From: Escherichia phage naam
Length of the DNA: 64,000 nucleotides
Sequence record: MN850630.1
Reading direction: 5' to 3' (one strand)
Positions 2,474 to 52,309 of this stretch are shown one piece after another. Within the stretch, counting starts at the first letter, position 1; each line of letters begins with the position of its first letter. The notes under the pieces were generated by a model. It was not told the origin of the DNA. It made no database searches and worked only from the letters and a program-made list of their open reading frames with translations. The translations under genes were made by a program, and so were the position numbers.

Positions 2474-2480
2474 CTGTTTT

Positions 2481-2510
2481 GCCCTCGCTTCGGCGGGGGC
2501 TTTTTGTTTG
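2481..2510 (+). terminator. Rho-independent terminator, UUCG-tetraloop hairpin plus U-tract
   Basis: gccctcgc-ttcg-gcgggggc followed by tttttgtttg, directly after the fibre stop codon. Confidence 0.8.
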
Positions 2511-2512
2511 TA

Positions 2513-2541
2513 TTGCGTATTAACTCAAAATCTGGTAAAAT
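2513..2541 (+). promoter_or_regulatory. Sigma70-like promoter (TTGCGT-17-TAAAAT)
   Basis: -35 at 2513-2518, -10 at 2536-2541; spacer shares the motif aaaatctggtaaaata with the promoter at 8024. Confidence 0.5.
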
Positions 2542-2572
2542 AACTATCATGATTGTTTAACCTGGAGGCACA

Positions 2573-3163: not shown

Positions 3164-3164
3164 G

Positions 3165-3716: not shown

Positions 3717-4141
3717 TGAGCACACACCCTCGTTTAGTGGATTGGCAAGAAAGATTGTGGAAAGTGTTTGACGAAGAGGCCACCATACCTTTTGAATGGG
3801 GATTCCACGATTGTTGCACCTTTGCGGCTAAGTGTGTTGATGCCCAATACGGAACAGATTTTCTTTCCAACTTCGAAGGAACGTATAAAACAGAGTTGGA
3901 AAGCAAAAGATGGTGCATGCTTCGTTTCAAAACTACACACCTGCCTACTATTTTTGATCTCTTTATGACTCGACTGGATACTCCTAAACAGGTTCAGCGT
4001 GGCGATATTGTTATTTTCGAAGGTCTGAACGGGCTCACCGCTGGTGTGTTCTGGAACAACCAGATTTGCGCGAAAGGTGATAAAGGGGTCTTTATGTTCG
4101 ACATGAAAGATTCTATCGTTGTTGATGTCTGGAGGTATTAA
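3716..4141 (+). CDS. Tail-tip assembly protein with NlpC/P60-like Cys motif (gpK-like, tentative)
   Basis: ATG at 3716 overlaps the upstream stop (TAATG); motif GFHDCCTF...RGDIVIF; sits directly upstream of the J-like gene. Confidence 0.5.
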   Translation: MSTHPRLVDWQERLWKVFDEEATIPFEWGFHDCCTFAAKCVDAQYGTDFLSNFEGTYKTELESKRWCMLRFKTTHLPTIFDLFMTRLDTPKQVQRGDIVIFEGLNGLTAGVFWNNQICAKGDKGVFMFDMKDSIVVDVWRY

Positions 4142-7100
4142 TGCCAATTGCAATGATTGATAACATCGTTGCTTCTGCAAGATCTTCAAGTTATGACTGG
4201 AACGCATCCAAGGCAGCTCTGGCTGACAGCCTGAACACTGTGACCACCAGAACTTTGGATAAGATTTTTGAGGGCAACAAATCTTACAGAAGTCAGCAAG
4301 ATAGACAAAAGCTTCTCAGATCTTCTGCTGCACCTTGCTCTGTAGTGTATGGAAAGACACGCACATCTGGATTGCTTGCGTTTTTGGAGCAGGATAGCGA
4401 CAGAACCCTCCATTGTGCTATTGTTCTTGCCAATCACCCTCTGGAAGGTATAGAAGATATACTTATCGACGGTAATCCTATTTCCTCGTATGGAGATCTG
4501 GTATCGTGGGAGCTACATAACGACAGAAAAACATCTGATCCTTTCATGGGTACACACTGCCCATCATGGTCACCTGACATGATAGGTAGAGGGATCAGTT
4601 GGCTACGTGCCAGCTTCAGGTTTGACCCTAACAAGTTTCCTTTTGGGTTGCCAAACGTTACACTCGTCAAGATTGGTAAAAAATGCTATGATCCTCGTAT
4701 CAGTAAAGAGGTGTACACCAATAACGCTGCCTTGGTGATCCTAGACTATTTAAGAACGTACCTTAAATGTCCTGACGAAACCATCAACTGGGAGTCCTTC
4801 AAGGAGGCTGCCAACATATGCGACGAGGCGGTAAAAAACGCAGACGGAACCAGTGAGCGCCGTTACACCATTAACGGTGAGTTTGACATGGATGAGGCCC
4901 CAGCAAGTATTATGGCAGAAATGCTGAAAGCTTGCGGTGCAGATCTTAGTTATGTTGCTGGTAAGTATGGTTTGCTGGTTGGTGCATACTATGGCCCAGC
5001 AACAATGACACTTAGTGAGGACTGTGTCTGTGGTGAGGTTAAGATCTATCCGGAAGCCTCATTTGACAAAAGATCCAACACAATAACTGGCAGATTCACT
5101 AGCCCGACCAAAGGGTATTCTGAAACAGATTTTCCATCAGTGTTTGTCCCAGAGTGGATAGAGAAGGATGGAGAAAGAAAGATAATCGATATAGATTATC
5201 GCTTTGTTACCAGTCCTTACCAAGCTCAGCGTGTTTCTGCAATCTTCCTAAGACGTGCTAGAGCTGGCAGGATTATTGAAGTCACCTGCAATATGCGAGG
5301 TTTTAAATTTAAGCCTGGCCGTTATGTTACAATGGACCTCCCAAGTATTGGTATTGTGGGCCAAGAAATGAGGGTTCTTGAATGGGAGTTCACCAAAAAG
5401 GGCGGTGTCAAGGTAAAACTTCGTCAAGATGCTAAAGAGTGGAATGATGCCACAGGGCAACTTCCGGATTCCGGCGATGTAGATATTCCGATATCCCCGT
5501 CCGGTGTAGCTCAGCCGCAAAACTTCAGATACTCCGTTCTCCAAGCTGGGGAAGTAACTCACGGTGTTTTGGCCTGGGACAACGTTGGGACTTACGCTCA
5601 AAATATTGTGCAGGTAAGAAAGAACGGAGAGATTGTTTGGACAGCACAGACAGTTGAGCAGTTTGTCCGTGTTGAAGGTCTGACTAAAGGTTCCTACACA
5701 GCCACTGTTGTTGCAACATCTTATAAAGGTGGTGTATCTCCAGAAGCGTATTGTGAGTTTAACATTCAGGCACCTGAAGCTCCGGTTTCTGTAGAGGTTA
5801 AGCAAGGATACTTTGCTATCACCTTGATTCCGCATAGTAGGGATTTAGCAAGTGTTAGCACCCAGTATGACTTTTGGACATCCGGTATGACAAGGTTGCC
5901 CGACACCAGTGATGCAACCGTTACTTCAAACGCCACCCGTATGGGTGTTGGTTCAACTTGGACATCTGAAGGTCTGCAGAACGATAAGGTTTATTATTGG
6001 TATATTCGAACCACAAACGCTTTTGGTAGTTCTCAGTTTGTAGAATGCGCTGCACGCTGCTACACCTCTATTGAGGATTTGATGCCTCAGATAGATGCTG
6101 AATTCAAAAAGACAGAAACTTATAAAGAGTTGATGAGCACTTTGGATTCCTCTATTGAAGAGGTTGAAAATCGTGTCACAGAACTTAACAGGTACATGGA
6201 TGGTAGGGTAGATGAGGCATTCCAGCAACTTGGAGACAGAATAGGTGCGGTAGTTACAGAGACAACTCAGAAGTTTGAGGATGTCAATGGCAATATCACA
6301 GCGCTGGATAGGAAACTTGTTGCTGCACAGAACAAGTTCACCAACGATCTGAACACTGAAAGTGGAAGATTGGCATCCCTGATTGAGACAACCAATAAAG
6401 CAACTACTGATCTTCTGAACAAAAAGACAGAGGCTTTAGATGAGAAATTGGTTGCCGCCAAAGGTGAGCTGGTAGAGCAGATAGAGGGAGTTGAGAGCGG
6501 GTATTTAGCCGGAGATAAAACTCTGGATGGTAAGATCAATACTCAGAGAACAGAACTTGACGCAAGCATCTTGAGCACTAACCAGGCCACTGTGGATCTT
6601 TTGAACAGGACATCTGAAACTCTGGATCAAAAGATTAGTCAGACAAACGCGACGGTATCTAAAAACTATACCACCCTTGACGGCAAGATAACTACCGCAA
6701 AAACTGACCTCAACACCTTGATTGCCAATACCAACAAGGCCACCACTGACTTGTTGAATCAGAAAACATCTGCACTGTCAGAGCAGATAACTTCTGCACG
6801 TGGGGAGATTTCTACCAACAAGCAAGCGATTGATGCTTTGGATGGAAAACTGACCTCCACAAAAACAGCGCTGGATGCTACAATTTCCGATACCAATAAA
6901 GCCACTGTGGACCTTATCAACGGCACAGCGTCAGCTATTCGTCAAGAACTTGCTGTTGCTAAGCAGGAGATCATTGATGATGTTGGGGATGTGTCTGAGA
7001 TCAGGGCTGCAGTAGCTACAACATCTAAGGCTGTAACCGACTTAGAGGGTAAAGTAAATGCTCAATGGGGCACAAAAATACAGGTAGACTCCGCAGGGAA

Positions 7101-23427: not shown

Positions 23428-23835
23428 TCAGTCCTCGCATTTAACAAATTTTTCTACAGATCCACCAAGCACAGCTTGTTGTTTGATGGCACTTTCTTCA
23501 TCATAGTGGATAGACTTATGTTCCGTACCTCCAAACTTACCTGTGTGGAAGGTGTGCACCCAAATCTCTTTAGGAAGGGATTTATTCTCTTCTTCCACCA
23601 ACTCCCACATTCCCCATAAGTGATCTGTGATATCTCTGATGAAATATCCCTCGCCGAGGTTTGTATTCACACTATAAGCTGATTCGTGATCTCCACAAAT
23701 ATAACGGAAGGCGGTGTACTCTTTCCCTGGCGTGAAGTGGGTATCCATTAGTATGGCTGTTAAAGAATTAGGGTCTCGAAAGCCCAAGAACTTTAGTTTA
23801 ACAATTTCGACATTTACATCTGCAAGATTATCCAT
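23428..23835 (-). CDS. Hypothetical protein with weak metallophosphoesterase-like motifs (D-x-H, GDHE)
   Basis: Track start TTG 23892 lies inside the promoter; internal ATG at 23835 has RBS agaggag and is 20-30 nt downstream of the -10. Confidence 0.5.
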   Translation of the reverse strand: MDNLADVNVEIVKLKFLGFRDPNSLTAILMDTHFTPGKEYTAFRYICGDHESAYSVNTNLGEGYFIRDITDHLWGMWELVEEENKSLPKEIWVHTFHTGKFGGTEHKSIHYDEESAIKQQAVLGGSVEKFVKCED

Positions 23836-23863
23836 GACGATCTCCTCTGTTTGGTTGGTGAGA

Positions 23864-23892
23864 ATTATATATAGATCTGGTGGTGGTGTCAA
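23864..23892 (-). promoter_or_regulatory. Consensus sigma70 promoter on the minus strand (TTGACA-17-TATAAT)
   Basis: Minus-strand reading aagcTTGACAccaccaccagatctataTATAATtctc. Confidence 0.7.
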
Positions 23893-36674: not shown

Positions 36675-37880
36675 ATGATTTTCATCTACGAACATTTCAA
36701 AACCCGTAAAGAAGCACGAGACCGCCGTGCAGAACTTGAGAAGAAGGGTTTCACATGTGCCATTGAGAAAGGCGACACAACCTGGACACTGGCAGTTGGT
36801 GCCCCAGAGTTGTTCGATCCTGACCGTGACAGCGTCTGCTACACCCGTGAGGATTTTGAAACCCGCGAAGAGGCCCGTTTATTTCGATACGGTCTGGAAG
36901 ATAACGGTAAGTACGCTATGATCTTAGATTTAGGCGAAGGTTCCGTTAAACGTTGGGGCGTGGTATACCCACTGTGTGTTGTTCACGGTGTGGGGTTCAC
37001 TGGGGTAGCAATCAAGTCAGAAGAACCTTTAGTAGAAGTCAAAGATCCGGTGCTGGAGGTGGTGAGCAGTGTGTCTCAGCAACAGACTCGAAGCATCGAG
37101 CCTTTGGTAGTTATTTGTGGGGAACTCCTCCAGATCACCTGCAACGAAGGCATTTTTGAAATTCGCCGCAGCGAAAGTGAGGAAGTTTACCAGAAAGTCT
37201 TCGACCATATCTCTGTTCAGGAATATGATGAGGCAATTGGTGAAATCCTTGTCTGGCTGGAACGCAAGAATGAGTTCACCACACTTGCAGACAACCTGAT
37301 CATGAAAGATGGTAAGCTCTACTACTACGGTGTAGAGATGCGATCCACCATTGCAAAGAAAATTGAGAAAGATTATGCAGACGGAACGCTGGATGACCGC
37401 TATGTGAAATTCCTCGTTCGCCTGCTACGCAATCCTTCTGCAAAATCTGTAAACATGCTCTACGATTTTATGCAGGCCAACGATATCCAGATTGCCGAAG
37501 ATGGTCGAATCATTTGCTACAAAGGGGTTCAGTTTAACGGCAGCAAGTGGGTGGATTGGCACAGTGGTAAAGTTCCACAATACCAGGGTGCTTTTGTATC
37601 CATGCCTCGTAACTTTGTAGAGGATGATCCGGAAGCTGCGTGCTCCTATGGCTTACACTGCGCCAGCAAAGAGTATGCAAAGAGCTACGGCACTGTAATG
37701 ACTGTTATGGTTGATCCTGCAGATGTGGTTAGTGTGCCATACCAACACAATAGCGCTAAGTGCCGTGCATGCCGCTATGAGATTGTGGTAGCTCCGGAAG
37801 CACGCAAAGATGGAGACCCTATTGAATATGTAGTTGATCGTGACGGTAACACTATCGACATTCTTTACGAGGAGGCGTAA
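36675..37880 (+). CDS. Hypothetical protein with tandem N-terminal repeat (possible rIIB-like partner)
   Basis: 401 aa; segments HFKTRKEARDRRAELEKKGFTCAI and DFETREEARLFRYGLEDNGKYAMI form an internal duplication. Confidence 0.45.
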   Translation: MIFIYEHFKTRKEARDRRAELEKKGFTCAIEKGDTTWTLAVGAPELFDPDRDSVCYTREDFETREEARLFRYGLEDNGKYAMILDLGEGSVKRWGVVYPLCVVHGVGFTGVAIKSEEPLVEVKDPVLEVVSSVSQQQTRSIEPLVVICGELLQITCNEGIFEIRRSESEEVYQKVFDHISVQEYDEAIGEILVWLERKNEFTTLADNLIMKDGKLYYYGVEMRSTIAKKIEKDYADGTLDDRYVKFLVRLLRNPSAKSVNMLYDFMQANDIQIAEDGRIICYKGVQFNGSKWVDWHSGKVPQYQGAFVSMPRNFVEDDPEAACSYGLHCASKEYAKSYGTVMTVMVDPADVVSVPYQHNSAKCRACRYEIVVAPEARKDGDPIEYVVDRDGNTIDILYEEA

Positions 37881-39250
37881 TGGAAAAAGGGCAGTATGAT
37901 GTAGGCACAGATGCTGCCCTCGTTGCAATCATGAGCGGTGAGAATGTCTTCGTTTCAGGACCCGCAGGTTGTGGGAAGACGTACCTCATCAACATGATCC
38001 AGTCAATGTATGGAGACTCTTGCATAACGGTTGCCCCGACAGGGGTAGCCGCTTTAAACGTTAATGGAGCAACAGCACACCGAACCTTCGATCTTGCAGC
38101 AGGTGTGAGCATGGAGTCGGACTGGACCGCAATAAGGGCAAAAACAGCAAAGCCTTTGAAAAGCAAGGCATTTACCATCCTAATTATCGATGAAATCTCT
38201 ATGATCCGTGCTGATAAGTTTATAGAGATGGATAGGAAACTCCGCTTCCTTCGAAAAAATGACAAACCTTTCGGGGGCATACAGGTCATATTGTTTGGCG
38301 ATTTTTACCAGGCACCTCCTGTTGTCTCTTCTATGGAGAAGGAAGCCTACTTCAACTTCTACCATACGGACCTGTGTTGCTATACCGAATCTTGGAAAGA
38401 GCTTGACCTCCACAACATAGCCCTAATAGATCAGTTCCGACAGGAGTCTATTCGATTTGCTACAATGCTCAACTGTGTTCGTGAGGGTCGTCGCATAAAA
38501 GAGGTTGTAGCAGAACTTAATGCTCGCTGTTACAAAGGAGGTGTACCAACAGACGCTCTCACAATTTGCGCCACCAACAAACAAGCAGAGGAAGTGAACA
38601 GAAGGTTCTATGATGCCATCAACGCCCCAGAGAAGGTATACACTGGTGAAATGAAGGGTAAGTTTCCCTCCACCCTGCCAGTTGAGCAGGAGATGAAGTT
38701 GAAAATTGGCATGAAAGTTATGATAACCGCCAACGATGTTGACCCGACGCACAAAGTACCTTATTATGTTAACGGAACACGTGCCACAATTGTTAAATTT
38801 AAGAACAAGGCGGTGGTGGTAGAGCTTGAAGATGGAACACAGGTTGACATAGAGCAGAGGTTGTGGGAGAATAACGAGTATAAGCCATCTCAGAGATACA
38901 ACATTGCAGAAAGGAAGATGGAGAAGTTTATAGAGAGGGTAGTGATTGGGTCATACAAGCAACTTCCTCTGAAATCTGGGTACGCCGTAACATCTCATAA
39001 AAGTCAAGGACTTACACTAGATTGTTACAACCTAGACCTTGGAAAGAACGGAGCTTTCTCTCCTGGGATGACGTATGTCGCTTTGAGTAGAGTTAAGACA
39101 ATACAAGGGATAAACTTGTTGCGTCCACTAAGAGAAGTTGACATTATTGTTGACCCGCGAGTCGTAGAGTTTTACAATACAACATTCCCTGACTTAGACA
39201 AAATTGTCAGGAAAGATTTTGAAACCAGAGCCGAAGAGGGGGACGTATGA
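37880..39250 (+). CDS. SF1 DNA helicase (Pif1/RecD/Dda-like)
   Basis: Walker A GPAGCGKT followed by VAPTGVAALNVNGATAH; Walker B-like ILIIDEISM; start overlaps the upstream stop. Confidence 0.8.
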   Translation: MEKGQYDVGTDAALVAIMSGENVFVSGPAGCGKTYLINMIQSMYGDSCITVAPTGVAALNVNGATAHRTFDLAAGVSMESDWTAIRAKTAKPLKSKAFTILIIDEISMIRADKFIEMDRKLRFLRKNDKPFGGIQVILFGDFYQAPPVVSSMEKEAYFNFYHTDLCCYTESWKELDLHNIALIDQFRQESIRFATMLNCVREGRRIKEVVAELNARCYKGGVPTDALTICATNKQAEEVNRRFYDAINAPEKVYTGEMKGKFPSTLPVEQEMKLKIGMKVMITANDVDPTHKVPYYVNGTRATIVKFKNKAVVVELEDGTQVDIEQRLWENNEYKPSQRYNIAERKMEKFIERVVIGSYKQLPLKSGYAVTSHKSQGLTLDCYNLDLGKNGAFSPGMTYVALSRVKTIQGINLLRPLREVDIIVDPRVVEFYNTTFPDLDKIVRKDFETRAEEGDV

Positions 39251-42235: not shown

Positions 42236-43000
42236 TTGAAATTTATCTACAAAGAACACTACCATAAAGGTGTTGTGTGGAGTCTATTTGACGGGTCTGG
42301 TGGTGCAGTCATTGACTGGGCAAAAGCTGGGTACCTGTGCCTGTGCTTTAATGCAGAAGGCGCTGATCACGGCAGTTATGCAGAGGTGATCACCGATCAT
42401 CCCAACATTCACTATGTGGACTATTGGATTGACCCGTGGTTCCCTCAGGAAACTTTTTGCATGTATCCGGCTCCAGACTTTATTCTTGCATTTCCTCCGT
42501 GCACGCATTTAGCGGTATCAGGTGCTGCACATTTTAAGAAAAAGCTGGCTAAGGACCCCATGATCCAAATTAATGCTGTAAAGGATGCTCGGGTTGCGGA
42601 AGAGCTGGGAGAGATTTACGATTGCCCGTGGCATGTAGAGAATCCTGTGGGTGTTATGTCCACACTGTGGCGCAAACCTGATTACCGTTTTCACCCTTCG
42701 GATTATGGCGGGTATTTACCGGAAGATGATGTAAACCCATGGTTTCCTGAATTTATAGCTCCACGTGATGCCTATCCAAAAATAACTTGCGGCTGGATAG
42801 GTAATGGATTTATAATCCCAGCCACAAAACCTGTCCCGCAAATAGTTGACGCGGTTAGCGGGTATTCCATGCAACACGCCAAGCTGGGTGGAAAGAGTGC
42901 AAGAACGAAGATGATTCGAAGCCTCACACCACGTGGCTGGGCAAAAGCCGTATTCCTAGCAAACGAGCCTGTAGTAAGGAGCAGAATTAATGGGAAGTAA
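42236..43000 (+). CDS. C5-cytosine methyltransferase-like protein with non-canonical motifs and no obvious target-recognition domain
   Basis: Track GTG start 42206 is inside the terminator stem; TTG at 42236 has RBS aggaga. Motif I-like SLFDGSGG, PC-like FPPCTH, ENV-like VENPVG. Confidence 0.45.
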   Translation: MKFIYKEHYHKGVVWSLFDGSGGAVIDWAKAGYLCLCFNAEGADHGSYAEVITDHPNIHYVDYWIDPWFPQETFCMYPAPDFILAFPPCTHLAVSGAAHFKKKLAKDPMIQINAVKDARVAEELGEIYDCPWHVENPVGVMSTLWRKPDYRFHPSDYGGYLPEDDVNPWFPEFIAPRDAYPKITCGWIGNGFIIPATKPVPQIVDAVSGYSMQHAKLGGKSARTKMIRSLTPRGWAKAVFLANEPVVRSRINGK

Positions 43001-45068
43001 ATTTATGGCATCTGCATACAACCGTTTCGGTGAGCCAAACCCGAAAGCAACTAAGTATAAAAGTGGGGGAAGTGTGAAACGAGACTATCGTGATGAAAAA
43101 GAAGTTGAAACTGTAGAGACTGTTTTAGAAAATACTAAAATTGTCCCTGTCCCACAACAAAATATCGGTCTGATGGCTGCACAATATTTTGGTGTGCGAT
43201 CAGCATTGTCACAAGAAGACGGTGTGACAGTCACTGCAACATATTTCCCATATTACGACCGCTACGGAAATCTGTCCGGTTTCAAAAAGCGTGACTGGAC
43301 TATTCCTAAAGAACAAAGGGGCCACTTCTCCGTTGTTGGCATCGTAAAGGCCAACTCCCAGATGTTTGGTCAAAAGCTGTGTGCATCTTCCAACAACCGT
43401 AAGCAGATTAACGTTTGTGAGGGAGAAGGTGATGTTATTGCAGCATGGCAGGCTGCATATCAGATACAAGTAAAAGGGATTCTCACCAACGCTAAAGCCC
43501 CGGCAAAGGTGAAGCAGTGGGCTAAAGAGGTCCAGGACGGGATCGACGCAGTTATCAACGGTGGTGATCTGGCAGGAAAACCCTGCCTGCCTTTTGTTGG
43601 AATTAACTGTGGATGTGCAAACGCAGTAGATACTTTTGCAAACAATGAGAAGTTTATCCGTAGCTATGGAACAGTTGTGCTGGCAATGGATAACGATGCA
43701 GCTAACGAGGTAGAGAAGCAAAAACACGTCATTAAAGGTGTCGAGGCCACGCACAATATCGCAGCATTTTTGATGGCTGATAACGTTTACCACGTAGAAT
43801 ACCCTGGTGAAGTAAACGACCCTGACGGTGTAAAAGATATCCGAGACATGCTGAAGGCTAAAAAGCTGGAAGATATTGTCAACATGTTCCGGCATCCTGT
43901 TAAATATGTGCCTGATGCTGTGTCGGATTTAGAAGACTTCTCTATCGAGTCTTTGCGGAAAAAGACTTCCAACGGGGTAGATATCAGCGCAGAGTTCCCA
44001 AAACTGCAAAAAATGCTAAAAGGCTTGCACAAAGGTACACTCGTAATGCTTACAGGCCCATCAGGTGGCGGTAAAACAACCGTAGCTAAAAAACTGGAAC
44101 ACTGTATTGCAAGATACCTAATGGACCCGACATGCCCGAAGGCTGATGACTATGAAGAGGATGATCGTCTATGTATGATCCATCTTGAGGAGGACCCAGA
44201 GGAAGCAATTAACTCCTTGTATGCAAACCAGTTAGGGTTTGATGTTAAAGAGTTTGTTGAAGATCCTAGCCAGTTTTTAACTGATCAAGAACACGCAGAG
44301 ATTCATCAGTCATGGGCAAAAGCTGGAAAAATCAAAGTGTTCAAACATTTCGGGTCTATTCCGGTGGATGAGTTGATTACCAAGCTTAAGCAAATGGTTT
44401 GCCTGTACCATTGCCGTTATATTGTGCTGGATCACCTGTCCATGGTAATTTCAGGGCTTAATGTTAAGGATGAGCGAAAAGAACTGGACATGGCTATGAC
44501 CCAACTGGCTGCGTTTTGTAAGCAGTTTAATGTGTTTATCTTGGTGATCGCTCACCTCAAACGTACAGAGATTGTGCCTCCTAAGGACAAGGATGGTAAC
44601 CCGTTACCTTTCTGGTATCCTGTGCGAAAAGAGAATTTGCGAGGATCGGCGGGGCTTGAACAGTTGAGTTGGGTAGTCATAGGTGTCGAGGCCGAAGAAA
44701 TGGTGGATCGTTCTCGTGGGCGTGTCCGTCTGGTAGGTCTTAAAAACCGTCCAGCAAAAACTTTAGGTATTGCTGACACTTTAGTTATGGACCCGCACAC
44801 AGGTAAGTTCCATGATGCCAGTAACTGGTACTGGGACAAAGAAATGCAAATGTTTACAGACGGAGAAGGTGGGGAGGTTGTTTGGAGACCTCAGGCTATG
44901 TTTGAGGATCAGGAGCATGCAGTTGTAGAAACACCTATGGGCAAGGTTGTGGCTGATAAGGTTGTAACTCCTACTGTTAAGCCTGTTGACACGCAGGAAG
45001 ACCTCCAGTACGATGATCCGTCCTCTGACCATGTTCCTGGTTTTGAGGATGATGAAACACCTTTTTAA
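42990..45068 (+). CDS. Replicative helicase with N-terminal TOPRIM (primase-like) domain, T7 gp4-like architecture
   Basis: TOPRIM-like CEGEGDV and VVLAMDNDAANE; Walker A LTGPSGGGKTT; DnaB-type FILVIAHLKR; acidic C-terminus ending FEDDETPF. Confidence 0.75.
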   Translation: MGSKFMASAYNRFGEPNPKATKYKSGGSVKRDYRDEKEVETVETVLENTKIVPVPQQNIGLMAAQYFGVRSALSQEDGVTVTATYFPYYDRYGNLSGFKKRDWTIPKEQRGHFSVVGIVKANSQMFGQKLCASSNNRKQINVCEGEGDVIAAWQAAYQIQVKGILTNAKAPAKVKQWAKEVQDGIDAVINGGDLAGKPCLPFVGINCGCANAVDTFANNEKFIRSYGTVVLAMDNDAANEVEKQKHVIKGVEATHNIAAFLMADNVYHVEYPGEVNDPDGVKDIRDMLKAKKLEDIVNMFRHPVKYVPDAVSDLEDFSIESLRKKTSNGVDISAEFPKLQKMLKGLHKGTLVMLTGPSGGGKTTVAKKLEHCIARYLMDPTCPKADDYEEDDRLCMIHLEEDPEEAINSLYANQLGFDVKEFVEDPSQFLTDQEHAEIHQSWAKAGKIKVFKHFGSIPVDELITKLKQMVCLYHCRYIVLDHLSMVISGLNVKDERKELDMAMTQLAAFCKQFNVFILVIAHLKRTEIVPPKDKDGNPLPFWYPVRKENLRGSAGLEQLSWVVIGVEAEEMVDRSRGRVRLVGLKNRPAKTLGIADTLVMDPHTGKFHDASNWYWDKEMQMFTDGEGGEVVWRPQAMFEDQEHAVVETPMGKVVADKVVTPTVKPVDTQEDLQYDDPSSDHVPGFEDDETPF

Positions 45069-45126: not shown

Positions 45127-47904
45127 ATGAGCATGTGGTCGTTCGATTTTGAGTCATCCGGTTTGCTGGAAGACCCAGATCTTTATTATCACTGCGGCCT
45201 GTTTAAAGAGCTGAATAAGAACCGTTTTATGCTGTTCCTTCCTCTGAATGACCGCACACACTACTCCGAGGAGGATATAGAGAAGGCCAAGAACTTTATT
45301 CTGGCAAAGAAAACTCTTTATAAGGATTTTGAAGTTCGCATAGCAGATTTTTCGGAGTTGGAAGGTTGGCTTACAGGAAATTCCGACTGGTCACCAACAG
45401 CTTTGAACTGCCATAACTGCTACAGTTATGACTTTATGCTGATGGAGAGATTATCCGGTATTCATTTTGATATGTTCCGTGATCCTAAATGTATGGGGAC
45501 TATCAACGACCACCAGGTTAACCTGTTTGATACGTTGGCGATGAGCCGAATCTTGTGGCCTGATCGCCCTTTACCAAAAGGTTGTCCGGACTCCGTATTC
45601 AACCCGGTTACTAAGAAAATGCAGCCTGTTGGTCCTCACGGCCTTATGGCATGGGGCTACGCCCTTGGTAACCAGAAAGTTCAAATTGATGACTGGCGCG
45701 ATCTTCCGTTGTGGAAGTATGTGGATCGTGTATTCGAGGACGTTATCATCCAGGAGCTACTCTGGAAAGAGCTGGTAGCGGAATCAAAAGGTGTATTCTA
45801 CGGCAAATCTGACATGCAGAACTTTATGTACGATCCTGCCAAAGAGAAGCCGAAAGGGTTCAAGAAGATCACCTGGAAGAACGCATTGCGCCGGGGTATG
45901 CTGCAACACTTCCTGATGGAGCTGCAGGCCCGTCAGGGTGTGTATTTTGACATAGATGGGGCTATTGCTTTACGTGACCGTTGCGATGCTTGGATGAAAG
46001 AAATCGCTGATCGTGTTGAACCACAACTACCTTTAAAAGAGCTGTCAATGTCTCAGCGGCCCAAGTTCCCTGAAAAGCCGTTTAACCAAGATGGGACAAT
46101 CTCCAATAATGGTTGGAAATGGTTAAAAGATAAGCTTGGCTATCCTGTGGACATGAGTGCTTTAGAGTTCAAGGCCCCGCCTAAGCGAGCATTTACCTCT
46201 ACAGGAGATGTCAGTAAGATGGGGATAAAATGGTGTGAAGAGATGGGCTGCAAAGACCCAGATAAGATGGCTGATTTCTTGAGAGGCTATATTAAGGGCA
46301 CCTCCACACCACAACCTTTGCCTAAAGAGCTAATGGATCAGGCAATAAGTGATCTACAGCAGAAGCGAATGCCGGACTGCAAGATACCTATGAAAATCAG
46401 CAACCAGGACGACATTAAGCGATACCTGATCAGTGCTGGTTGGCTTCCGACAATGTGGAGAACTAAGGATGTAACTAAAGACAGCAAGAAGAAAGCTCTA
46501 CCTGATGCAGATGTTGATGCACGAGTATATGCATATATGGACGAGCTTTTAGAGTCAGAGTATTGTGACCTGATTATCAACTTCTGGAACAAAACTGATG
46601 CTAAGTTCCAGACAACCGTGCACAAGTTCCGAAGCTTTCCTAACTCCGAAAGGATTAAAAAGGAAGTATTCGGGAAAATACGTAGAAAAGCTAGGGCACT
46701 TATTACTTCTCCGCAACTGAAAGATACTTTTGGACACCTATGTCCAAATCTTGAAAAATTGAACGGAGAGATGGCTAAAGATATCGTCTTGTGGTTATCA
46801 TTGCGAAACCGCAGATCGGTCCTTGATCCAATCAAGGAGGATAAGGTTGATACTGGTCTTCTTAATCACCCACGTTTGAAGATTGACCATAAGCTTCCTG
46901 CTAAAAGCTCTGGATTAACAAACACTTCCCGACAGAAACACAGTATTTGTGCAAACATGCCTAAACCATCTCCTAAAGTGGTTATGGGTAAAGAGATGCG
47001 TAGTCTGTGGGGTGTTCCTCCAGGATACTTTGAGATCGGTATTGACGGGTCCAACTTAGAGCAGCTTATCGGGGCTTGGGGTGCCTTTGAGTTCGACAAC
47101 GGCTTGTATTATGATGTTGTAAGTAACGGAGACGCACACCAAAACAACGCCGAGGCATATACAAAAGTAGCAGGCAGAGAGGTATCTCGTAACGACGGTA
47201 AACCTATCACGTATGGGGTTATGTACGGGGCACAAAAAGACAAAGTTGCAGACATGCTGGATATCTCCCCAGAGTTGGGACAAAGGGTAATTGATGCACT
47301 TTGGGATGCCAACCCTGGTCTTAAGGGGCGTAAAGAAGATCTGGAGAAATTCTGGGAAGCAACGGGTAAGAAGTTTATCTACTCTTTTGATGGTCATGCT
47401 ATCTGGACCCGATCTAAACACTCTTTACTTAATGCATACCAACAGAATGGTGGTGCATCGTTGTGTGACTTAGTTGGGATACTCATGCACCACCAAATGG
47501 TGAAGCGTGGGTGGTACGATGAAGGTGTTCGTCGTATTATTTATTACCATGACGAATATCAGCTTCAAGTCCCTGACACACCTAAGTATAAGACTGTGTA
47601 CACCTTCGACACAATTGAAGAACTGGAAGCATTTAAGGCAGAGCAGGAGTCCAAACTTCATGTGTTCGACGGTCATAAGTACAAAAAGGCACGCAAGGAT
47701 GAGGACGGAAACGAAGTGGTTGACAGAGACGGAAACACGGTGTACGATCCTATCCTGAACGATGACGGAAAGCTTGAACTTATCTGGAGCCCTGTGGGTG
47801 AAATGGTGGTGCATTGCTTCTGGCAAGCTTCTAAAATGATGGGCGTCCCGTTTCAGATCACAGGTGAATACCTGTGTGGTCGTAATTGGGGTGATTGTCA
47901 CTAA
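45127..47904 (+). CDS. DNA polymerase, family A (Pol I-like) with N-terminal exonuclease region
   Basis: Motif B-like RNDGKPITYGVMYGAQ, motif C YYHDEYQLQV, N-terminal FDFESSGL exo-like motif; 925 aa. Confidence 0.85.
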   Translation: MSMWSFDFESSGLLEDPDLYYHCGLFKELNKNRFMLFLPLNDRTHYSEEDIEKAKNFILAKKTLYKDFEVRIADFSELEGWLTGNSDWSPTALNCHNCYSYDFMLMERLSGIHFDMFRDPKCMGTINDHQVNLFDTLAMSRILWPDRPLPKGCPDSVFNPVTKKMQPVGPHGLMAWGYALGNQKVQIDDWRDLPLWKYVDRVFEDVIIQELLWKELVAESKGVFYGKSDMQNFMYDPAKEKPKGFKKITWKNALRRGMLQHFLMELQARQGVYFDIDGAIALRDRCDAWMKEIADRVEPQLPLKELSMSQRPKFPEKPFNQDGTISNNGWKWLKDKLGYPVDMSALEFKAPPKRAFTSTGDVSKMGIKWCEEMGCKDPDKMADFLRGYIKGTSTPQPLPKELMDQAISDLQQKRMPDCKIPMKISNQDDIKRYLISAGWLPTMWRTKDVTKDSKKKALPDADVDARVYAYMDELLESEYCDLIINFWNKTDAKFQTTVHKFRSFPNSERIKKEVFGKIRRKARALITSPQLKDTFGHLCPNLEKLNGEMAKDIVLWLSLRNRRSVLDPIKEDKVDTGLLNHPRLKIDHKLPAKSSGLTNTSRQKHSICANMPKPSPKVVMGKEMRSLWGVPPGYFEIGIDGSNLEQLIGAWGAFEFDNGLYYDVVSNGDAHQNNAEAYTKVAGREVSRNDGKPITYGVMYGAQKDKVADMLDISPELGQRVIDALWDANPGLKGRKEDLEKFWEATGKKFIYSFDGHAIWTRSKHSLLNAYQQNGGASLCDLVGILMHHQMVKRGWYDEGVRRIIYYHDEYQLQVPDTPKYKTVYTFDTIEELEAFKAEQESKLHVFDGHKYKKARKDEDGNEVVDRDGNTVYDPILNDDGKLELIWSPVGEMVVHCFWQASKMMGVPFQITGEYLCGRNWGDCH

Positions 47905-47953
47905 TGTAAACTATCAACACATGGAAGTGTTGTTGAGCAAAGAGGAGACTTTT

Positions 47954-48238
47954 ATGGTAGTAGAACCAACAAAAACATTTACATCCATGACTATCCCTGT
48001 TATTATGCAGGTGGAGTGTGTTCAGGTATCTCAAGTGTGGCCAGGCACTAAAATCCCAACAGGGCCTGATTTCTTTCAGGTTGGGAAAGTGTACAATGTC
48101 TGGAAGGCACCAGATTGTCACCCTTTCATCAAAGATGACCGTGGAATGCTGTGGTATCTTGGAAATGATTTGACACTGCACCTTGGGAATGCTATTATTG
48201 CAGTATTCAGACTTAACAAGAAGGAGACTGATCAATGA
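47954..48238 (+). CDS. Small hypothetical protein, member of a tandem paralog family
   Basis: Track start 47864 overlaps the polymerase; ATG at 47954 has RBS agaggag; motif KVYNVWKA...IKDDRGMLWYL. Confidence 0.45.
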   Translation: MVVEPTKTFTSMTIPVIMQVECVQVSQVWPGTKIPTGPDFFQVGKVYNVWKAPDCHPFIKDDRGMLWYLGNDLTLHLGNAIIAVFRLNKKETDQ

Positions 48239-48462
48239 CGACTTTGGTTAAAGCTACCTTTGTAGAAGAAAAGATGACAGACCTGTCATTCTTTAAAGAA
48301 GGAAAGACCTACGAGGTTTATTACGATAAAGCTCGTGCAAACAAGATGATTAAAGACGAGGAAGGGATTGCCTGGTTTATCTCCCATCTGGCAAACGGTG
48401 AGTATCATATCTACGGAACCACCCTGCTTGCCAAGTTTGTAGCTGTTGAAGAGGACCTATGA
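48235..48462 (+). CDS. Small hypothetical protein, tandem paralog
   Basis: Motif GKTYEVYYD...IKDEEGIAWFI. Confidence 0.5.
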   Translation: MTTLVKATFVEEKMTDLSFFKEGKTYEVYYDKARANKMIKDEEGIAWFISHLANGEYHIYGTTLLAKFVAVEEDL

Positions 48463-48653
48463 AAGTAAAGTATCTGGCTGAGGGTATGAGTAGGTATTTC
48501 ACCCTTGGTGAAGAATATTGGCCCTTTACAAGCAACGGCGATGTCTACGTGAAAGATAATTTCGGCACGCCGTGGTTTCTGCACCCTAATGGGCTGGGAT
48601 ACTCCATTTACTGCGGTGCAGTGAACAACACAACACTTGCAGAGTTTGTATAG
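48459..48653 (+). CDS. Small hypothetical protein, tandem paralog
   Basis: Motif GEEYWPF...VKDNFGTPWFL. Confidence 0.5.
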   Translation: MKVKYLAEGMSRYFTLGEEYWPFTSNGDVYVKDNFGTPWFLHPNGLGYSIYCGAVNNTTLAEFV

Positions 48654-48663
48654 AGGAGGTAGA

Positions 48664-49035
48664 ATGTTAGTAAAAGGTACCCACACAGTCAAACAACGTA
48701 TTGAAGTTGAGATTGATGACTGCGAGCTGAAGCATATTTTACGGTCATGCTCCAACGTTTTGCTCCTTAGCATTCTTCAGGAGCGAGCAGAGAACGAGTT
48801 CTTAAATGCACTGGCAGGCCGTCCTGGTGACTTCTGTGTGCGTAAGCGTGGTGACAACAAGTCATGGCTGTGGGAGATAGACGCAGAATGGGATTACCAC
48901 AAAAATGAGGGTATAGATGAGCCTATTCGTGAATTGACAGACAAAGAGGTTCAGATGTACAATGAAGTTTGTCATTGGGCAACACGCCAACAAATTTACC
49001 TCGACCCCGTGTGGCTGATTGAAAATAGTCATTGA
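48664..49035 (+). CDS. Hypothetical protein
   Basis: ATG at 48664 with RBS agaggagg (track start 48637). Confidence 0.5.
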   Translation: MLVKGTHTVKQRIEVEIDDCELKHILRSCSNVLLLSILQERAENEFLNALAGRPGDFCVRKRGDNKSWLWEIDAEWDYHKNEGIDEPIRELTDKEVQMYNEVCHWATRQQIYLDPVWLIENSH

Positions 49036-49060
49036 CAAGAAGTAAGATTAGATATAAGAT
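49032..49060 (+). promoter_or_regulatory. Sigma70-like promoter (TTGACA-17-TAAGAT)
   Basis: -35 at 49032-49037 overlaps the upstream stop codon; drives the 49112 gene. Confidence 0.55.
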
Positions 49061-49111
49061 GCTTCACACAAACAGAGCGTTGATTTTTAAATAACTAAGG
49101 AGACTGCTAAG

Positions 49112-49366
49112 ATGAAAATTACTTTGAAGTCAGAATGCGTTGCAAATGACCGAGCTTTTAAAGATTGCACAGTCGGTGCAATTTATGAAGCAGAGTTTTG
49201 TGAGAACCCTCTGGTAAAAGCCCTCCTGGAAGAAGGGGCCCCTTTATCACAAGAAGAGATCGATGAGCTGGAAAACTCAGCACAGTGCCTTACCTTTAAA
49301 GATGATGAAGGAGACTCTGTCTGGTGCACTGTTAATGAAGTAGTTTTTGTAAAACCTGAACATTAA
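49112..49366 (+). CDS. Small hypothetical protein, paralog of 49430-49690
   Basis: Shared motifs AFKDCTVGAIY and DEGDSVWCTVNEV; RBS aaggag. Confidence 0.5.
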   Translation: MKITLKSECVANDRAFKDCTVGAIYEAEFCENPLVKALLEEGAPLSQEEIDELENSAQCLTFKDDEGDSVWCTVNEVVFVKPEH

Positions 49367-49369
49367 TAC

Positions 49370-49398
49370 TTGACAACAGTGATGGGGCCTAATATAAT
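49370..49398 (+). promoter_or_regulatory. Consensus sigma70 promoter (TTGACA-17-TATAAT) with gggcc/ggccc inverted repeat around the -10
   Basis: -35 at 49370-49375, -10 at 49393-49398. Confidence 0.7.
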
Positions 49399-49429
49399 GG
49401 CCCTATCAAAACGAAAGGGGACCACAGCA

Positions 49430-49690
49430 ATGACCAAACAATATCAACGAATTAAAGCCAAGGTTAAGCCAGACTATCTGGAGAAAGACTCTGCTTTTCG
49501 GGACTGCACAGCCGACAAAGTTTACACAGGGGCTGTCCTGTTGAACGATAAGCTTGAAGTAGATGTGCTGGGTAAAGAGGCCGTTATCGAGGATGACAAC
49601 GGTGACTGTGTTTTCTGCACCACACGGGAGCTAGAAGTCTTAGAATACTTCGGTGAAATCTTCAACTCCTTAGACGACGAGGAAGCGTGA
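49430..49690 (+). CDS. Small hypothetical protein, paralog of 49112-49366
   Basis: Track start TTG 49370 is the promoter -35; ATG at 49430 is the first start downstream of the -10; motifs AFRDCTADKVY and DNGDCVFCTTREL. Confidence 0.5.
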   Translation: MTKQYQRIKAKVKPDYLEKDSAFRDCTADKVYTGAVLLNDKLEVDVLGKEAVIEDDNGDCVFCTTRELEVLEYFGEIFNSLDDEEA

Positions 49691-50079
49691 TGAAAAATAT
49701 TTGGGATATTGATATCTTTGAAGCCTCTAAGCTTGACGGTGCTGATGGAGTTATTATGGTGTCTGATGGCAAGGCAACACTAACTTCCGGAGATATCATC
49801 TATGCCTTGGACGAGCTGGCGCTTCTGAAATCTACCGGTAACACTTTAGAGGAGCGTCTTCAAGGCTTCGCCTTCAAAGAAGGCACAAATACCGCCATGA
49901 TGTGCACCACACGGACAGTTCAGGTTGGTAACGGTGTCTATATGATCATTGCTGTGTGTCCTAAATTCAGCAACGTCAACAAAGATGATGCTGACGCTGT
50001 CAACGATGTGGTTGTTCTCTTCGTGGGTGACGCTATGGCAGACCTGATGAATGCAGGAGAAGCGGCAAATGAAGACTGA
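49687..50079 (+). CDS. Hypothetical protein
   Basis: 130 aa ORF, ATGA coupling. Confidence 0.5.
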   Translation: MMKNIWDIDIFEASKLDGADGVIMVSDGKATLTSGDIIYALDELALLKSTGNTLEERLQGFAFKEGTNTAMMCTTRTVQVGNGVYMIIAVCPKFSNVNKDDADAVNDVVVLFVGDAMADLMNAGEAANED

Positions 50080-50371
50080 AAACATTACCCCAGCAGGGTT
50101 CTTAAAAGTATACCGTGAACTGCTATATACTACAGAGGACAGTGTTCTAGAGTATCCAGAATATCTTTTGCTGTATAAGTATCTACAGGAAGCTGGTGAA
50201 AATCTGCCAGTTAGTGCAGAAGGCGGTCCGAACTGGGTATACAGCGCATGGAGAAAGGTTGACATTCTCCCAGATCCAGGTAAAGATATGGTAGTTTGGC
50301 AGCTTATCAACAACATCGGGATTCCAATCTTTGATGAAGCTGTTAAAATCTATTTTGAACTTGACGATTAA
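50069..50371 (+). CDS. Hypothetical protein
   Basis: ATG at 50069 with RBS aggaga (track start 50051). Confidence 0.5.
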   Translation: MKTENITPAGFLKVYRELLYTTEDSVLEYPEYLLLYKYLQEAGENLPVSAEGGPNWVYSAWRKVDILPDPGKDMVVWQLINNIGIPIFDEAVKIYFELDD

Positions 50372-50388: not shown

Positions 50389-50634
50389 ATGACTGAAGTA
50401 GTTGCTCGCGCAGGACAGAAAGTACGTTGTGTTGAAGTAGGTTTTGGTGGCAAAGGGTGTCAAAACTTGACTCAAGGTAAGGAATACGCTGTTATTTCTG
50501 GTGGTGGCGACGAAAGTATTGTGTTCGAGGGCCACATCCTGGATGCTGAAAACTTTGAAATCTTTGACGACGATGGGGATCCGATCACCTGCCTGCTGGA
50601 CGGGAATTGGGGAACTTTTGAAGTGATTGGCTAA
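50389..50634 (+). CDS. Hypothetical small acidic protein
   Basis: 81 aa ORF with RBS aggaga. Confidence 0.5.
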   Translation: MTEVVARAGQKVRCVEVGFGGKGCQNLTQGKEYAVISGGGDESIVFEGHILDAENFEIFDDDGDPITCLLDGNWGTFEVIG

Positions 50635-50717: not shown

Positions 50718-51083
50718 ATGGAACAAATGAACGATCAAGCGTCGGTTGCGATGAACGAGCAAGAACAACCTCAAGAATTTTTCTTAGGGTTAAGTAAAGA
50801 TCAAGTGTCTCTTCTGCTAGTGCTTTCTTCTTTCATGGGAAGACTTCAGGAGCTTACACAACAGCCAGAGGCTGAACAATTATTCCAGGCTCTGCGTGAA
50901 GAAGAAAAATATCGTCGTTTGGACTATGCCTTAGGTTGGGTAGCTCAACAACGGGATATGCTGATGGCCCTCTCTGGGACCACAAGTTTTGCAATGGGCC
51001 TGCTGGCTCAAGTTCAGGACAAATTAATTCAAGCAGGGTTTGCACACACGGCAAACACTAACGAAGAACAAGGAGACAAATAA
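50718..51083 (+). CDS. Hypothetical protein
   Basis: 121 aa ORF with RBS ggag; coupled to the SSB-like gene. Confidence 0.5.
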   Translation: MEQMNDQASVAMNEQEQPQEFFLGLSKDQVSLLLVLSSFMGRLQELTQQPEAEQLFQALREEEKYRRLDYALGWVAQQRDMLMALSGTTSFAMGLLAQVQDKLIQAGFAHTANTNEEQGDK

Positions 51084-52309
51084 TGAGCGTTATCCAACAA
51101 TTCGCTAACCCGATGAATCCGCGTGAAACTGTTTTACTGGCTCACGGCATGATTAAACGTGTCAGCATCAAGCCTATCAAAGGTGCTGATCCTACAACAG
51201 GTATTAAAACCACTGTGTGGCAAGGTAAGAAAATTGAATCCAGCCACACCATCTCTTTACTGATTTCTGAACTGGATTCCTCTGATAACCTGCTTCAAGG
51301 TGGTGAAGAAGTCTGGATCAGCATGGGTGATAAACTGCTTAAACCGGGTCATCAAGACTCTGTCTCTGTTAAGATTGATGACAAGTGGGAAACCGTAACG
51401 CCAGGATGGATCGTAAATATCCCTTTGAAGGCAAACGAGCATAACGGTAAGACCTATTACAAAGGCTCACTGGCTAAGATGGTTAAGCTGGGTGCAGGAG
51501 AGGCTCCAGCAGCGGCTCAGCAGCAAAAACAGCAACAAGGTGCACAATCACAAGGCCAGAAGCAGAAACCTCAGCAGAATGCCAATCAGGACGTTTTACG
51601 CATCTATGGTGATGTGACTCAGATTGTTGGCAACGTGGTTACTGTTAATGACCACAAGATTGGCGAAGGTGCTATGGTTGTCACTGATGAGCAGCTTAAA
51701 GACCTGGTGGTAGGTGGTCGTGTTGCAGCCATTGTTGACAAAGACACCGGAAACATTATCAGTGGTTTCAAGGCCTATCCTCCTAAGGCAGAGAACGGCA
51801 CTCAAGGCTCTGGTGGCAAGCGTAAATCCTCTTACGACCCTATCGGTGTGGAGACGGGACATAGCATCAATGCGTTGCAGATCATCCTGGATCGCGGGTT
51901 TAAGGTGGACGACCCACTAGGCGTGGCTAAAACACTGCACGTAGTCACCATTGAGCTTAAGAAAGAGTATGCTCAAGCCACCAACCGAACTGAAGATGAA
52001 GTAGGTGCCAGTGTCGGCAATGCGGTGTTGAACGCTTGTCGCCGTATTGACAAGAAAACGAAAGTTGATGATTTTGCAGCGGCAATTACTGCAGAAGCAA
52101 AAGATGTCTTGACTAATCTGGCTGAGCCGTTGTACGATTGGATCAAGAACGGTGCTGGGTCCACTGACCATCAAGAACCTCAAGCTGCCAAACAGGAAGC
52201 AGCTCCACAGCAAAACACTGTAGACGCTCCTCCTGTAAATGACGAGGAAGATGACCCGATGGATCAGAATCCAGCACAGTACGCCTTTGATGATGACATC
52301 CCATTCTAA
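51083..52309 (+). CDS. ssDNA-binding protein-like, with Q-rich linker and E. coli SSB-type acidic tip
   Basis: Ends PMDQNPAQYAFDDDIPF; E. coli SSB ends MDFDDDIPF; internal QQQKQQQGAQSQGQKQKPQQ low-complexity linker. Confidence 0.55.
   Translation: MSVIQQFANPMNPRETVLLAHGMIKRVSIKPIKGADPTTGIKTTVWQGKKIESSHTISLLISELDSSDNLLQGGEEVWISMGDKLLKPGHQDSVSVKIDDKWETVTPGWIVNIPLKANEHNGKTYYKGSLAKMVKLGAGEAPAAAQQQKQQQGAQSQGQKQKPQQNANQDVLRIYGDVTQIVGNVVTVNDHKIGEGAMVVTDEQLKDLVVGGRVAAIVDKDTGNIISGFKAYPPKAENGTQGSGGKRKSSYDPIGVETGHSINALQIILDRGFKVDDPLGVAKTLHVVTIELKKEYAQATNRTEDEVGASVGNAVLNACRRIDKKTKVDDFAAAITAEAKDVLTNLAEPLYDWIKNGAGSTDHQEPQAAKQEAAPQQNTVDAPPVNDEEDDPMDQNPAQYAFDDDIPF

What the first reader, a model, noticed from the sequence alone, without database searches (positions are those of the whole stretch)
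47954..49690. Two tandem families of small paralogous genes downstream of the DNA polymerase
Three adjacent genes (47954-48238, 48235-48462, 48459-48653) share a G-K/E-x-Y-x-V ... [IV]KD[DEN]xGxxW[FY][IL] signature. Two further neighbours (49112-49366, 49430-49690) share AF[KR]DCT...Y and D[EN]GD.V.CT motifs, each with its own sigma70-type promoter. Tandemly amplified small genes in phages are often fast-evolving host-interaction factors.
Basis: seen in the sequence. Interest (0 to 1): 0.45.

Follow-up and report, generated by a model that had tools for sequence, protein, structure and literature searches.

The report
Tandem small beta-barrel genes in rV5-like phage
Downstream of the DNA polymerase of an rV5-like E. 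coli phage lie two real families of duplicated small genes; one is predicted to have the rare fold of Gp54 of phage Bas11, a protein that a bacterial immune sensor recognises, but what these genes do is still untested.

Summary
The window is a Vequintavirus (rV5-like) genome. A/B/C (47954-48653) are paralogs (shuffle z 10.9, 6.2, 3.1), and so are E/F (49112-49690; z 10.6). Both sigma70-type promoters are present. The two families are not detectably related to each other by sequence.

New here:
- The same module occurs elsewhere as 2-5 repeats inside one polypeptide, or fused to other domains.
- In a sister lineage the family-1 array has 3, 4, 5 or 7 copies. One copy is a chimera made by recombination at a 16-nt identity between two paralogs.
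- Family 2 (model of F, pLDDT 84) is a generic SH3-like barrel and stays at two copies.

All five proteins are neutral to acidic and under purifying selection (dN/dS 0.01-0.22). B and F are in about 115 of 116 genus genomes. A role in binding host or defence proteins is plausible but inferred only. Moderate interest.

The parts
45127..47904 (+). Family A DNA polymerase (925 aa). Context gene; the A-B-C-D cluster follows 50 nt downstream with no promoter or terminator predicted in the gap.
   Evidence: PHROG 17/8888 DNA polymerase; ORF list; promoter and terminator scan.
47954..48238 (+). Gene A, family 1 member (94 aa, pI 6.7). It has a longer N-terminal part; its stop overlaps the start of B (ATGA).
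   Evidence: phrog_12922, unknown function; A-B z=10.9; family-1 HMM hit 74 bits; dN/dS 0.01-0.06.
48235..48462 (+). Gene B, central family 1 member (75 aa, pI 5.1). Predicted six-stranded beta-barrel with a long beta1-beta2 loop; its stop overlaps the start of C (ATGA).
48459..48653 (+). Gene C, family 1 member (64 aa, pI 5.0).
   Evidence: phrog_12802; B-C z=6.2; independent repeat HMM 1.1e-7.
48664..49035 (+). Gene D (123 aa). It belongs to neither family and separates the two arrays.
   Evidence: phrog_6273, unknown function; no hit to either family HMM.
49032..49060 (+). Sigma70-type promoter-like site upstream of E (TTGACA-17-TAAGAT).
   Evidence: Consensus scan 10/12; PhagePromoter annotation at the same place in Gotham.
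49112..49366 (+). Gene E, family 2 member (84 aa, pI 4.2).
   Evidence: phrog_12544, with a cross-hit to F's phrog_11936 at 9.6e-5; E-F z=10.6.
49370..49398 (+). Perfect sigma70 consensus promoter-like site upstream of F (TTGACA-17-TATAAT).
   Evidence: 12/12; annotated promoter in Gotham. It favours the ATG at 49430 over the upstream ATG that some records use for a 97-aa product (P0053).
49430..49690 (+). Gene F, family 2 member (86 aa, pI 4.3). Predicted five-stranded SH3-like barrel with a short helix in the first loop and an acidic C-terminal tail; its stop overlaps the ATG of the next gene (TGATG).
50389..50634 (+). Gene I (81 aa, pI 4.1). Possible third small barrel carrying the same GKEY.V ... 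DDDGD pattern; the relationship is borderline only.
   Evidence: Repeat HMM E=0.009 in the window; its L010 orthologue 3.8e-5 among 23 proteins; hhalign to family 2 E=7.7e-4 over 16 columns; phrog_4927 is hit by a repeat of P0081 at 0.0048.

Best explanation
Shown: these are two old, tandemly arranged multigene families of real protein-coding genes in the replication-gene region of a Vequintavirus. Each gene encodes a single-domain, neutral to acidic, 7-11 kDa small beta-barrel. A, B and C are translationally coupled (ATGA overlaps) behind the DNA polymerase. E and F each have a host-type sigma70 promoter-like site. Family 1 is predicted to adopt the six-stranded barrel with a long beta1-beta2 loop that has so far been solved only for Gp54 of phage Bas11. 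It belongs to a rare, unannotated sequence module that phages carry as separate tandem genes (3-7 copies), as 2-5 repeats within one polypeptide, or as an N-terminal domain joined to varied C-terminal parts. The array changes by unequal recombination between paralogs and by mosaic exchange. Inferred: each copy is a stoichiometric protein-binding module made early or mid infection, which binds a host or defence protein (takeover or counter-defence). Paralogs would differ in target. Like Gp54 of Bas11, such proteins could also be what host sensors detect.
Against: No functional data exist for any member. The link to Gp54 is structural only: profile and HMM comparisons are not significant, and both structures here are predictions. 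[quoted passage not shown] Near-universal presence and purifying selection within the genus fit a housekeeping role as well as an arms-race role. The position inside the replication module would also suit a replisome accessory role. No positive selection was detected at whole-gene level.
Confidence: 0.45

Rival explanations
1. The small barrels are accessory or adaptor subunits of the phage replisome, for example binding the polymerase, the primase-helicase or the downstream 408-aa protein with an SSB-like tail. Paralogs would serve different partners.
For: They sit between the primase-helicase and polymerase genes and a conserved 408-aa protein ending in DDDIPF. A-C are probably co-transcribed and translationally coupled behind the polymerase. 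B and F are near-universal in the genus, and all five genes are under purifying selection.
Against: Other Vequintavirinae genera with an orthologous polymerase (Certrevirus CR9, a Mydovirus) have no detectable family member next to it. Copy number varies from 3 to 7 between close relatives, which is unusual for replisome parts. The module also occurs in unrelated phages with other replication systems.
Confidence: 0.2
2. They are nucleic-acid-binding SH3/KOW/Tudor-like proteins, such as RNA chaperones or transcription or translation regulators of the early-to-middle switch.
For: Family 2's fold neighbours include KOW, Tudor, the Ski2 insertion domain and MazF/Kid barrels. The genes lie among early or middle genes with host-type promoters.
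Confidence: 0.08
3. The similarity is compositional or due to chance, or the ORFs are not genes.
For: The proteins are short, the A-C pair alone is weak (z=3.1), and there is no Pfam family.
Confidence: 0.01
4. They are virion-associated or morphogenetic small proteins, as suggested by stray database names such as 'putative minor capsid protein' on fold neighbours.
For: One BFVD fold neighbour in a Vequintavirus (phage isim, 78 aa) is named 'putative minor capsid protein', and weak hits exist to phrog_14592, 'virion structural protein'.
Against: Those hits have E of 0.02-0.06 and the names are unverified. The genes lie in the replication or early region behind sigma70-type promoters, far from the structural modules.
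Confidence: 0.04

Closest known systems
Gp54 of Escherichia phage Bas11 (JohannLBurckhardt), PDB 9AXB; alternative trigger of the CapRelSJ46 fused toxin-antitoxin defence (Zhang et al., Nature 2024, PMC11578894)
   Different: No significant sequence similarity (hhalign E 0.3-0.5; different PHROGs, 7421 against 12623/12922/12802). Gp54 is a single gene in a T1-like siphovirus, not a tandem array. Whether A, B or C bind any CapRel-type sensor is unknown, and even close Gp54 homologues do not.
SH3-like small beta-barrels (SH3, KOW, Tudor, Ski2 insertion domain)
   Different: Scores are at the generic level. No sequence signature of any of these families was found. Family 2 has its own conserved AF[KR]DCT and DDxGDxVxCT motifs with two conserved cysteines.
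Unannotated phage repeat proteins and fusions carrying the same module (P0078 with 4 repeats, P0079 with 5, P0081 with 2 repeats plus DUF3310, P0083/P0084, Enterococcus and Lactobacillus phage proteins P0086-P0100, phrog_3523, C-terminal half of Bas11 gp48)
   Same: Shared sequence module: G..h.C ... aromatic-aromatic-T.GK.Y.V ... h.DD.G..W ... F.h. HMM E-values are 1e-6 to 1e-9 in both directions.
   Different: There the modules are covalently linked or fused to other domains. Here they are separate, translationally coupled genes. None has a known function.
Tandem multigene families of small accessory genes in large lytic phages (general phenomenon; own knowledge)
   Same: Head-to-tail small paralogs, variable copy number between relatives, and recombination between copies.
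   Different: Here the paralogs are old (45% identity or less) and B and F are near-universal in the genus with purifying selection, rather than being strain-specific cargo.

Membership tests
Gp54(Bas11)-like six-stranded beta-barrel proteins (PDB 9AXB / phrog_7421) | Six-stranded small barrel with a prominent beta1-beta2 loop | tested here: met
Gp54(Bas11)-like six-stranded beta-barrel proteins (PDB 9AXB / phrog_7421) | Detectable sequence homology to Gp54 / phrog_7421 | tested here: not met
   The profile search against PDB sequences does not find 9AXB at E<=10. hhalign E 0.49 and 0.32. Family HMMs do not hit gp54 in the Bas11 genome. Gp54 maps to phrog_7421 only.
Gp54(Bas11)-like six-stranded beta-barrel proteins (PDB 9AXB / phrog_7421) | Direct binding to and activation of CapRelSJ46 (pseudo-zinc-finger antitoxin domain) | not testable with these tools
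   Needs co-expression toxicity, ITC or pull-down. The paper shows that even close Gp54 homologues fail to activate.
Gp54(Bas11)-like six-stranded beta-barrel proteins (PDB 9AXB / phrog_7421) | Small, acidic, non-essential accessory protein | tested here: inconclusive
   Size 64-94 aa and pI 5.0-6.7 fit. Essentiality was not tested. Near-universal presence of B in the genus neither proves nor excludes dispensability.
Tandem paralogous multigene family (duplication and divergence) | Pairwise or profile similarity beyond composition between adjacent genes | tested here: met
   Shuffle z 10.9, 6.2 and 10.6; paralog network z up to 28; independent HMM.
Tandem paralogous multigene family (duplication and divergence) | Copy-number change between relatives, with recombination between copies | tested here: met
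   Family 1 has 3, 4, 5 or 7 copies. Family 2 has 2 copies in the loci that span the whole array, with F truncated in L015. A b/f chimera has its junction at a 16-nt identity, and L013 is a mosaic.
SH3-like fold (family 2) | Five-stranded barrel superimposable on SH3/KOW/Tudor domains | tested here: inconclusive
Any curated Pfam family | Score above the gathering threshold | tested here: not met
   No Pfam hit for A, B or C; only sub-threshold hits for E and F.
Single superfamily uniting family 1, family 2 and gene I | Significant profile-profile similarity | tested here: not met
   A3 against A4 hhalign E 0.027 over 12 columns, probability 1.8%. The repeat HMM gives F 0.42 and E 2.8. Gene I is borderline.
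Known anti-defence proteins | Homology to a characterised anti-defence protein, or a counter-defence phenotype | not tested
   No anti-defence library is among the tools, and the phenotype needs experiments.

The most novel reading that the evidence does not exclude
The family-1 module is an evolvable binder scaffold that phages deploy as a repertoire, either as arrays of separate genes (3-7 copies) or as multi-repeat polypeptides. Each copy would neutralise or decoy a different host immune sensor or host factor. Unequal recombination between copies would generate new chimeric specificities. Gp54 of Bas11, caught by CapRelSJ46, would be the first glimpse of this class.
Probability: 0.12. Interest if true: 0.75.

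Novelty: new member of a known kind. Interest (0 to 1): 0.42.

Why it matters
Gp54 of Bas11 is one of the few phage proteins known to be read directly by a bacterial immune sensor, yet its own role and its relatives are unknown, and its fold was described as very rare. This locus suggests that the fold is common among small enterobacterial phage proteins. It also shows the fold in a well-studied, easily handled phage group (BASEL Vequintavirinae) as a multi-copy, recombining gene family. That gives a concrete set of proteins to test for defence triggering or inhibition, and a natural series of arrays with 3 to 7 copies in which to ask what copy number buys the phage. If no host-interaction phenotype appears, the finding remains a tidy annotation: two new small-barrel families in about 115 genomes that are currently labelled 'hypothetical protein'.

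Tried and rejected
- Pfam scan of ten neighbouring proteins: nothing for A-F, only DUF7238 for H.
- Word-indexed homologue searches with both family profiles returned only Vequintavirus orthologues.
- tblastn of B and F against 50,697 phage records hit only the genus.
- IMG/VR scans with both profiles returned the same two near-identical contigs.
- Uniting families 1 and 2 and gene I by hhalign or HMM was not significant, so they stay separate.
- A sequence link from family 1 to Gp54 of Bas11 was not significant by four routes, so the link is treated as structural only.
- No family member was found next to the polymerase of other Vequintavirinae genera, CR9 and a Mydovirus.
- The extra copies of the 5- and 7-copy arrays are absent from the phage records.
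- The literature search for rV5 or Vequintavirus transcription timing was mostly irrelevant; searches for functions of these genes found nothing specific.
- The DUF3310 literature gives no function.
- P0080 and P0082, large Ig/FN3/beta-helix proteins in the index-free search, were judged spurious sums of weak repeat hits.

Full report
**Identity of the window.** Region 47900-49700 is 97-99% identical to more than 100 Vequintavirus (rV5-like, about 136 kb) E. coli myoviruses such as ECO111 5-P, JeffSchatz, Gotham and Murica. In all of them the genes are 'hypothetical protein'. Upstream lie a primase-helicase (42990-45068) and a family A DNA polymerase (45127-47904).

**Checking the observation.**
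- A: 47954-48238, 94 aa
- B: 48235-48462, 75 aa
- C: 48459-48653, 64 aa
- E: 49112-49366, 84 aa
- F: 49430-49690, 86 aa

Gene D (48664-49035) lies between the two groups and belongs to neither.

Local alignment scores against 500 shuffles give the following:

| Pair | z | Shuffles reaching the score |
|---|---|---|
| A-B | 10.9 | 0/500 |
| B-C | 6.2 | 0/500 |
| E-F | 10.6 | 0/500 |
| A-C | 3.1 | 7/500 |

- The motifs are visible in the alignments. C departs from the G-K/E-x-Y-x-V motif, with GEEYWP.
- PHROGs places each gene in its own family of unknown function, with weak cross-hits within each group.
- Pfam has nothing.
- HMMs of both families find no other member among the window's 1057 ORFs.
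- The two promoter-like sites exist: 49032-49060 (10/12) and 49370-49398 (12/12, the perfect consensus). PhagePromoter annotations sit at the same positions in Gotham.
- A/B and B/C overlap by ATGA, and F's stop overlaps the next gene's ATG. These genes are therefore probably translationally coupled.

**Are the two families related to each other?** Profile-profile comparison of orthologue alignments (A3 against A4) aligns only the DD.G turn (E 0.027, probability 1.8%). They remain two families. Gene I (50389-50634) carries a similar GKEY.V ... DDDGD pattern, but the evidence is borderline.

**Family 1 beyond the genus.** Word-indexed searches and tblastn found only genus orthologues.
- An index-free HMM search of 1.84 billion representatives found only 12 proteins at E<1e-3. 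Besides orthologues, these include proteins with the module repeated inside one chain: P0078 has 4 repeats, P0079 has 5, P0081 has 2 plus DUF3310, and P0083 has 2.
- An HMM built only from those 13 repeats, with no window sequence, hits B at 6.8e-9, C at 1.1e-7 and A at 8e-7 in the window. This independently confirms the family.
- A third search added Enterococcus and Lactobacillus phage proteins, in which one module is joined to different C-terminal helical parts.
- The C-terminal half of Bas11 gp48 also matches (3.7e-5).
- The module is not in Pfam.

**Structures.** The AF2 model of B (alignment A6) has pLDDT 87.6 and pTM 0.76. It shows six strands and a long loop between strands 1 and 2.
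- Gp54 of Bas11 is 66 aa, of unknown function and not essential in the laboratory. It binds the antitoxin domain of CapRelSJ46 (Kd 800 nM) and activates it. The authors speculate that it may inhibit another defence.
- I retrieved Gp54 from MZ501085.1 and found no significant sequence link to family 1. The relationship is structural only.
- Foldseek against BFVD shows the same fold (query-normalised TM-scores of 0.65-0.79) in many uncharacterised small proteins of T1-like and rV5-related phages. In phages the fold is therefore common rather than rare.
- The AF2 model of F (family 2) has pLDDT 84.3. It is a five-stranded barrel with a short helix in the first loop.

**Evolution.** Against three relatives (Gotham and two IMG/VR contigs), dN/dS is 0.01-0.22 for A-F, with dS up to 0.7. 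These are genes under purifying selection.
- B is the fastest of the family-1 genes, with dN of 0.08-0.10 against 0.002-0.004 for the polymerase.
- A is nearly as conserved as the polymerase.
- B and F each occur in 115 of about 116 genus records.
- All proteins from A to J have pI 4.1-5.1, except A at 6.7.

**Copy number.** Metagenome-derived contigs of a sister lineage (downstream genes H and K 84-99% identical to the window's) carry different arrays:

| Locus | Family-1 copies |
|---|---|
| Window, L001-L003, L015 | 3 |
| L013 | 4 |
| L010, L011 | 5 |
| L012, L014 | 7 |
| L006 (contig cut upstream) | at least 6 |

- Family 2 stays at two copies in the loci that span the whole array. In L015, F is reduced to a fragment.
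- No two paralogs exceed about 45% identity. The family is therefore old, and the differences between relatives reflect loss and exchange rather than fresh amplification.
- The mechanism is visible in L015. Its second copy is the N-terminus of copy b joined to the rest of copy f.
- The junction lies at a 16-nt stretch (GTTGGAACTTTACAGA) that is identical in both copies, within the WNFTE codons. The event removed copies c, d and e.
- L013 is a mosaic. Its left part is of the sister type, and from gene C onward it is of the window type (13_3 is 98% identical to the window's C, against 69% for the sister copy).
- A copy of this expanded type (the L6e-like gene of L010/L011) has no tblastn match in any of the 50,697 deposited phage records.

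**Interpretation.** Shown: two real paralog families of small neutral to acidic beta-barrels. Family 1 has the Gp54 fold (predicted), belongs to a wider repeat or fusion module, and forms a recombining array with variable copy number.

Inferred: they act as protein-binding modules aimed at host or defence proteins. Four observations support this.
- The one solved fold relative is bound by a host sensor.
- The proteins are small and neutral to acidic.
- The module is used in a modular way across unrelated phages.
- The array has birth-and-death dynamics.

Four observations count against it.
- There are no functional data.
- Gp54's own function is unknown, and its CapRel recognition is not conserved even among close homologues.
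- The genes are conserved within the genus and under purifying selection.
- They sit inside the replication module, which keeps a replisome-accessory role alive as the main rival.

Nucleic-acid binding is disfavoured by charge. Chance similarity is excluded.

**Verdict.** This is a correct observation of moderate interest. The genes are known only as hypothetical proteins. The new points are the paralogy, the structural tie to Gp54 of Bas11, the wider module, and the copy-number and chimera evidence. It is a new member of a known kind (small accessory phage proteins in tandem families), not a new kind of system.

Noticed in passing
window 51083-52309 (+) and 42990-45068 (+): The 408-aa protein downstream (phrog_4477, unknown function) ends in ...FDDDIPF, the same C-terminal tip as E. 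coli SSB (own knowledge). The primase-helicase ends in ...EDDETPF. This may be mimicry of the SSB tail that recruits host SSB-interacting proteins, or the 408-aa protein may be the phage's own SSB.
   Followed up: partly
window 50389-50634 (+): Gene I (81 aa, pI 4.1, phrog_4927) carries GKEYAV ... DDDGDPI, resembling both families, with borderline HMM and hhalign scores. It may be a third small barrel in the same 2.7-kb stretch.
   Followed up: partly
L015 7353-7577; L012 7352-7579 and 8197-8424: A chimeric family-1 gene formed by recombination between paralogs b and f at a 16-nt identical stretch (GTTGGAACTTTACAGA), deleting three genes.
   Followed up: yes
L011 609-1271; L012-L015 6274-6876: In the sister lineage an Ead/Ea22-like gene (200-220 aa, PF13935) plus a 63-aa gene are inserted between A and the rest of the family-1 array.
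   Followed up: no
L012-L015 about 2300-5934; phage records FFH2, Mangalyan, CR9: In several relatives the DNA polymerase gene is split (809 aa plus 118 aa). In L012 and L014 there are intervening ORFs of 168 aa, or 72 and 96 aa; in L013 and L015 none is called. Deposited relatives carry an HNH homing endonuclease there. In the window the polymerase is intact at 925 aa.
   Followed up: no
protein P0064 (131 aa), aligned in A4: One metagenomic contig encodes an F-G fusion protein: the N-terminus of F is joined in frame to the C-terminus of the next gene. This contaminated the family-2 HMM and explains its weak hit to 49657-50076.
   Followed up: partly
window 48170-48198 and 48934-48963 (+): Strong sigma70-like sites (11/12 each) lie inside coding sequence, just upstream of B (inside A) and inside D. 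They may be internal promoters.
   Followed up: no
window 23428-23892 (-): The N-terminal part of a 154-aa ORF (...HFTPGKEYTAFRYI...GEGYFIRDI...) gives weak hits to the family-1 and repeat HMMs (E 0.02-0.36). It may be a distant module fused to another domain.
   Followed up: no
L007 (Bas11, MZ501085.1) 37578-37943 (-): The C-terminal half of Bas11 gp48 (121 aa, phrog_2684) matches the family-1 HMM at 3.7e-5. Bas11 therefore carries both the Gp54 fold and, separately, the family-1 sequence module. The top BFVD fold hit (127 aa, phage NBD2) may be its orthologue, judged on size alone.
   Followed up: partly
search result: Sixteen GenBank records named 'Campylobacter phage' (host C. jejuni) are 96-97% identical to this E. 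coli Vequintavirus region. The host labels are probably wrong.
   Followed up: no
window 50051-50371 (+): Gene H is the only neighbour with a Pfam family (DUF7238, 30.6 bits). It is 99% identical at protein level even in the divergent L006 lineage, where flanking small genes are 48-71% identical.
   Followed up: no
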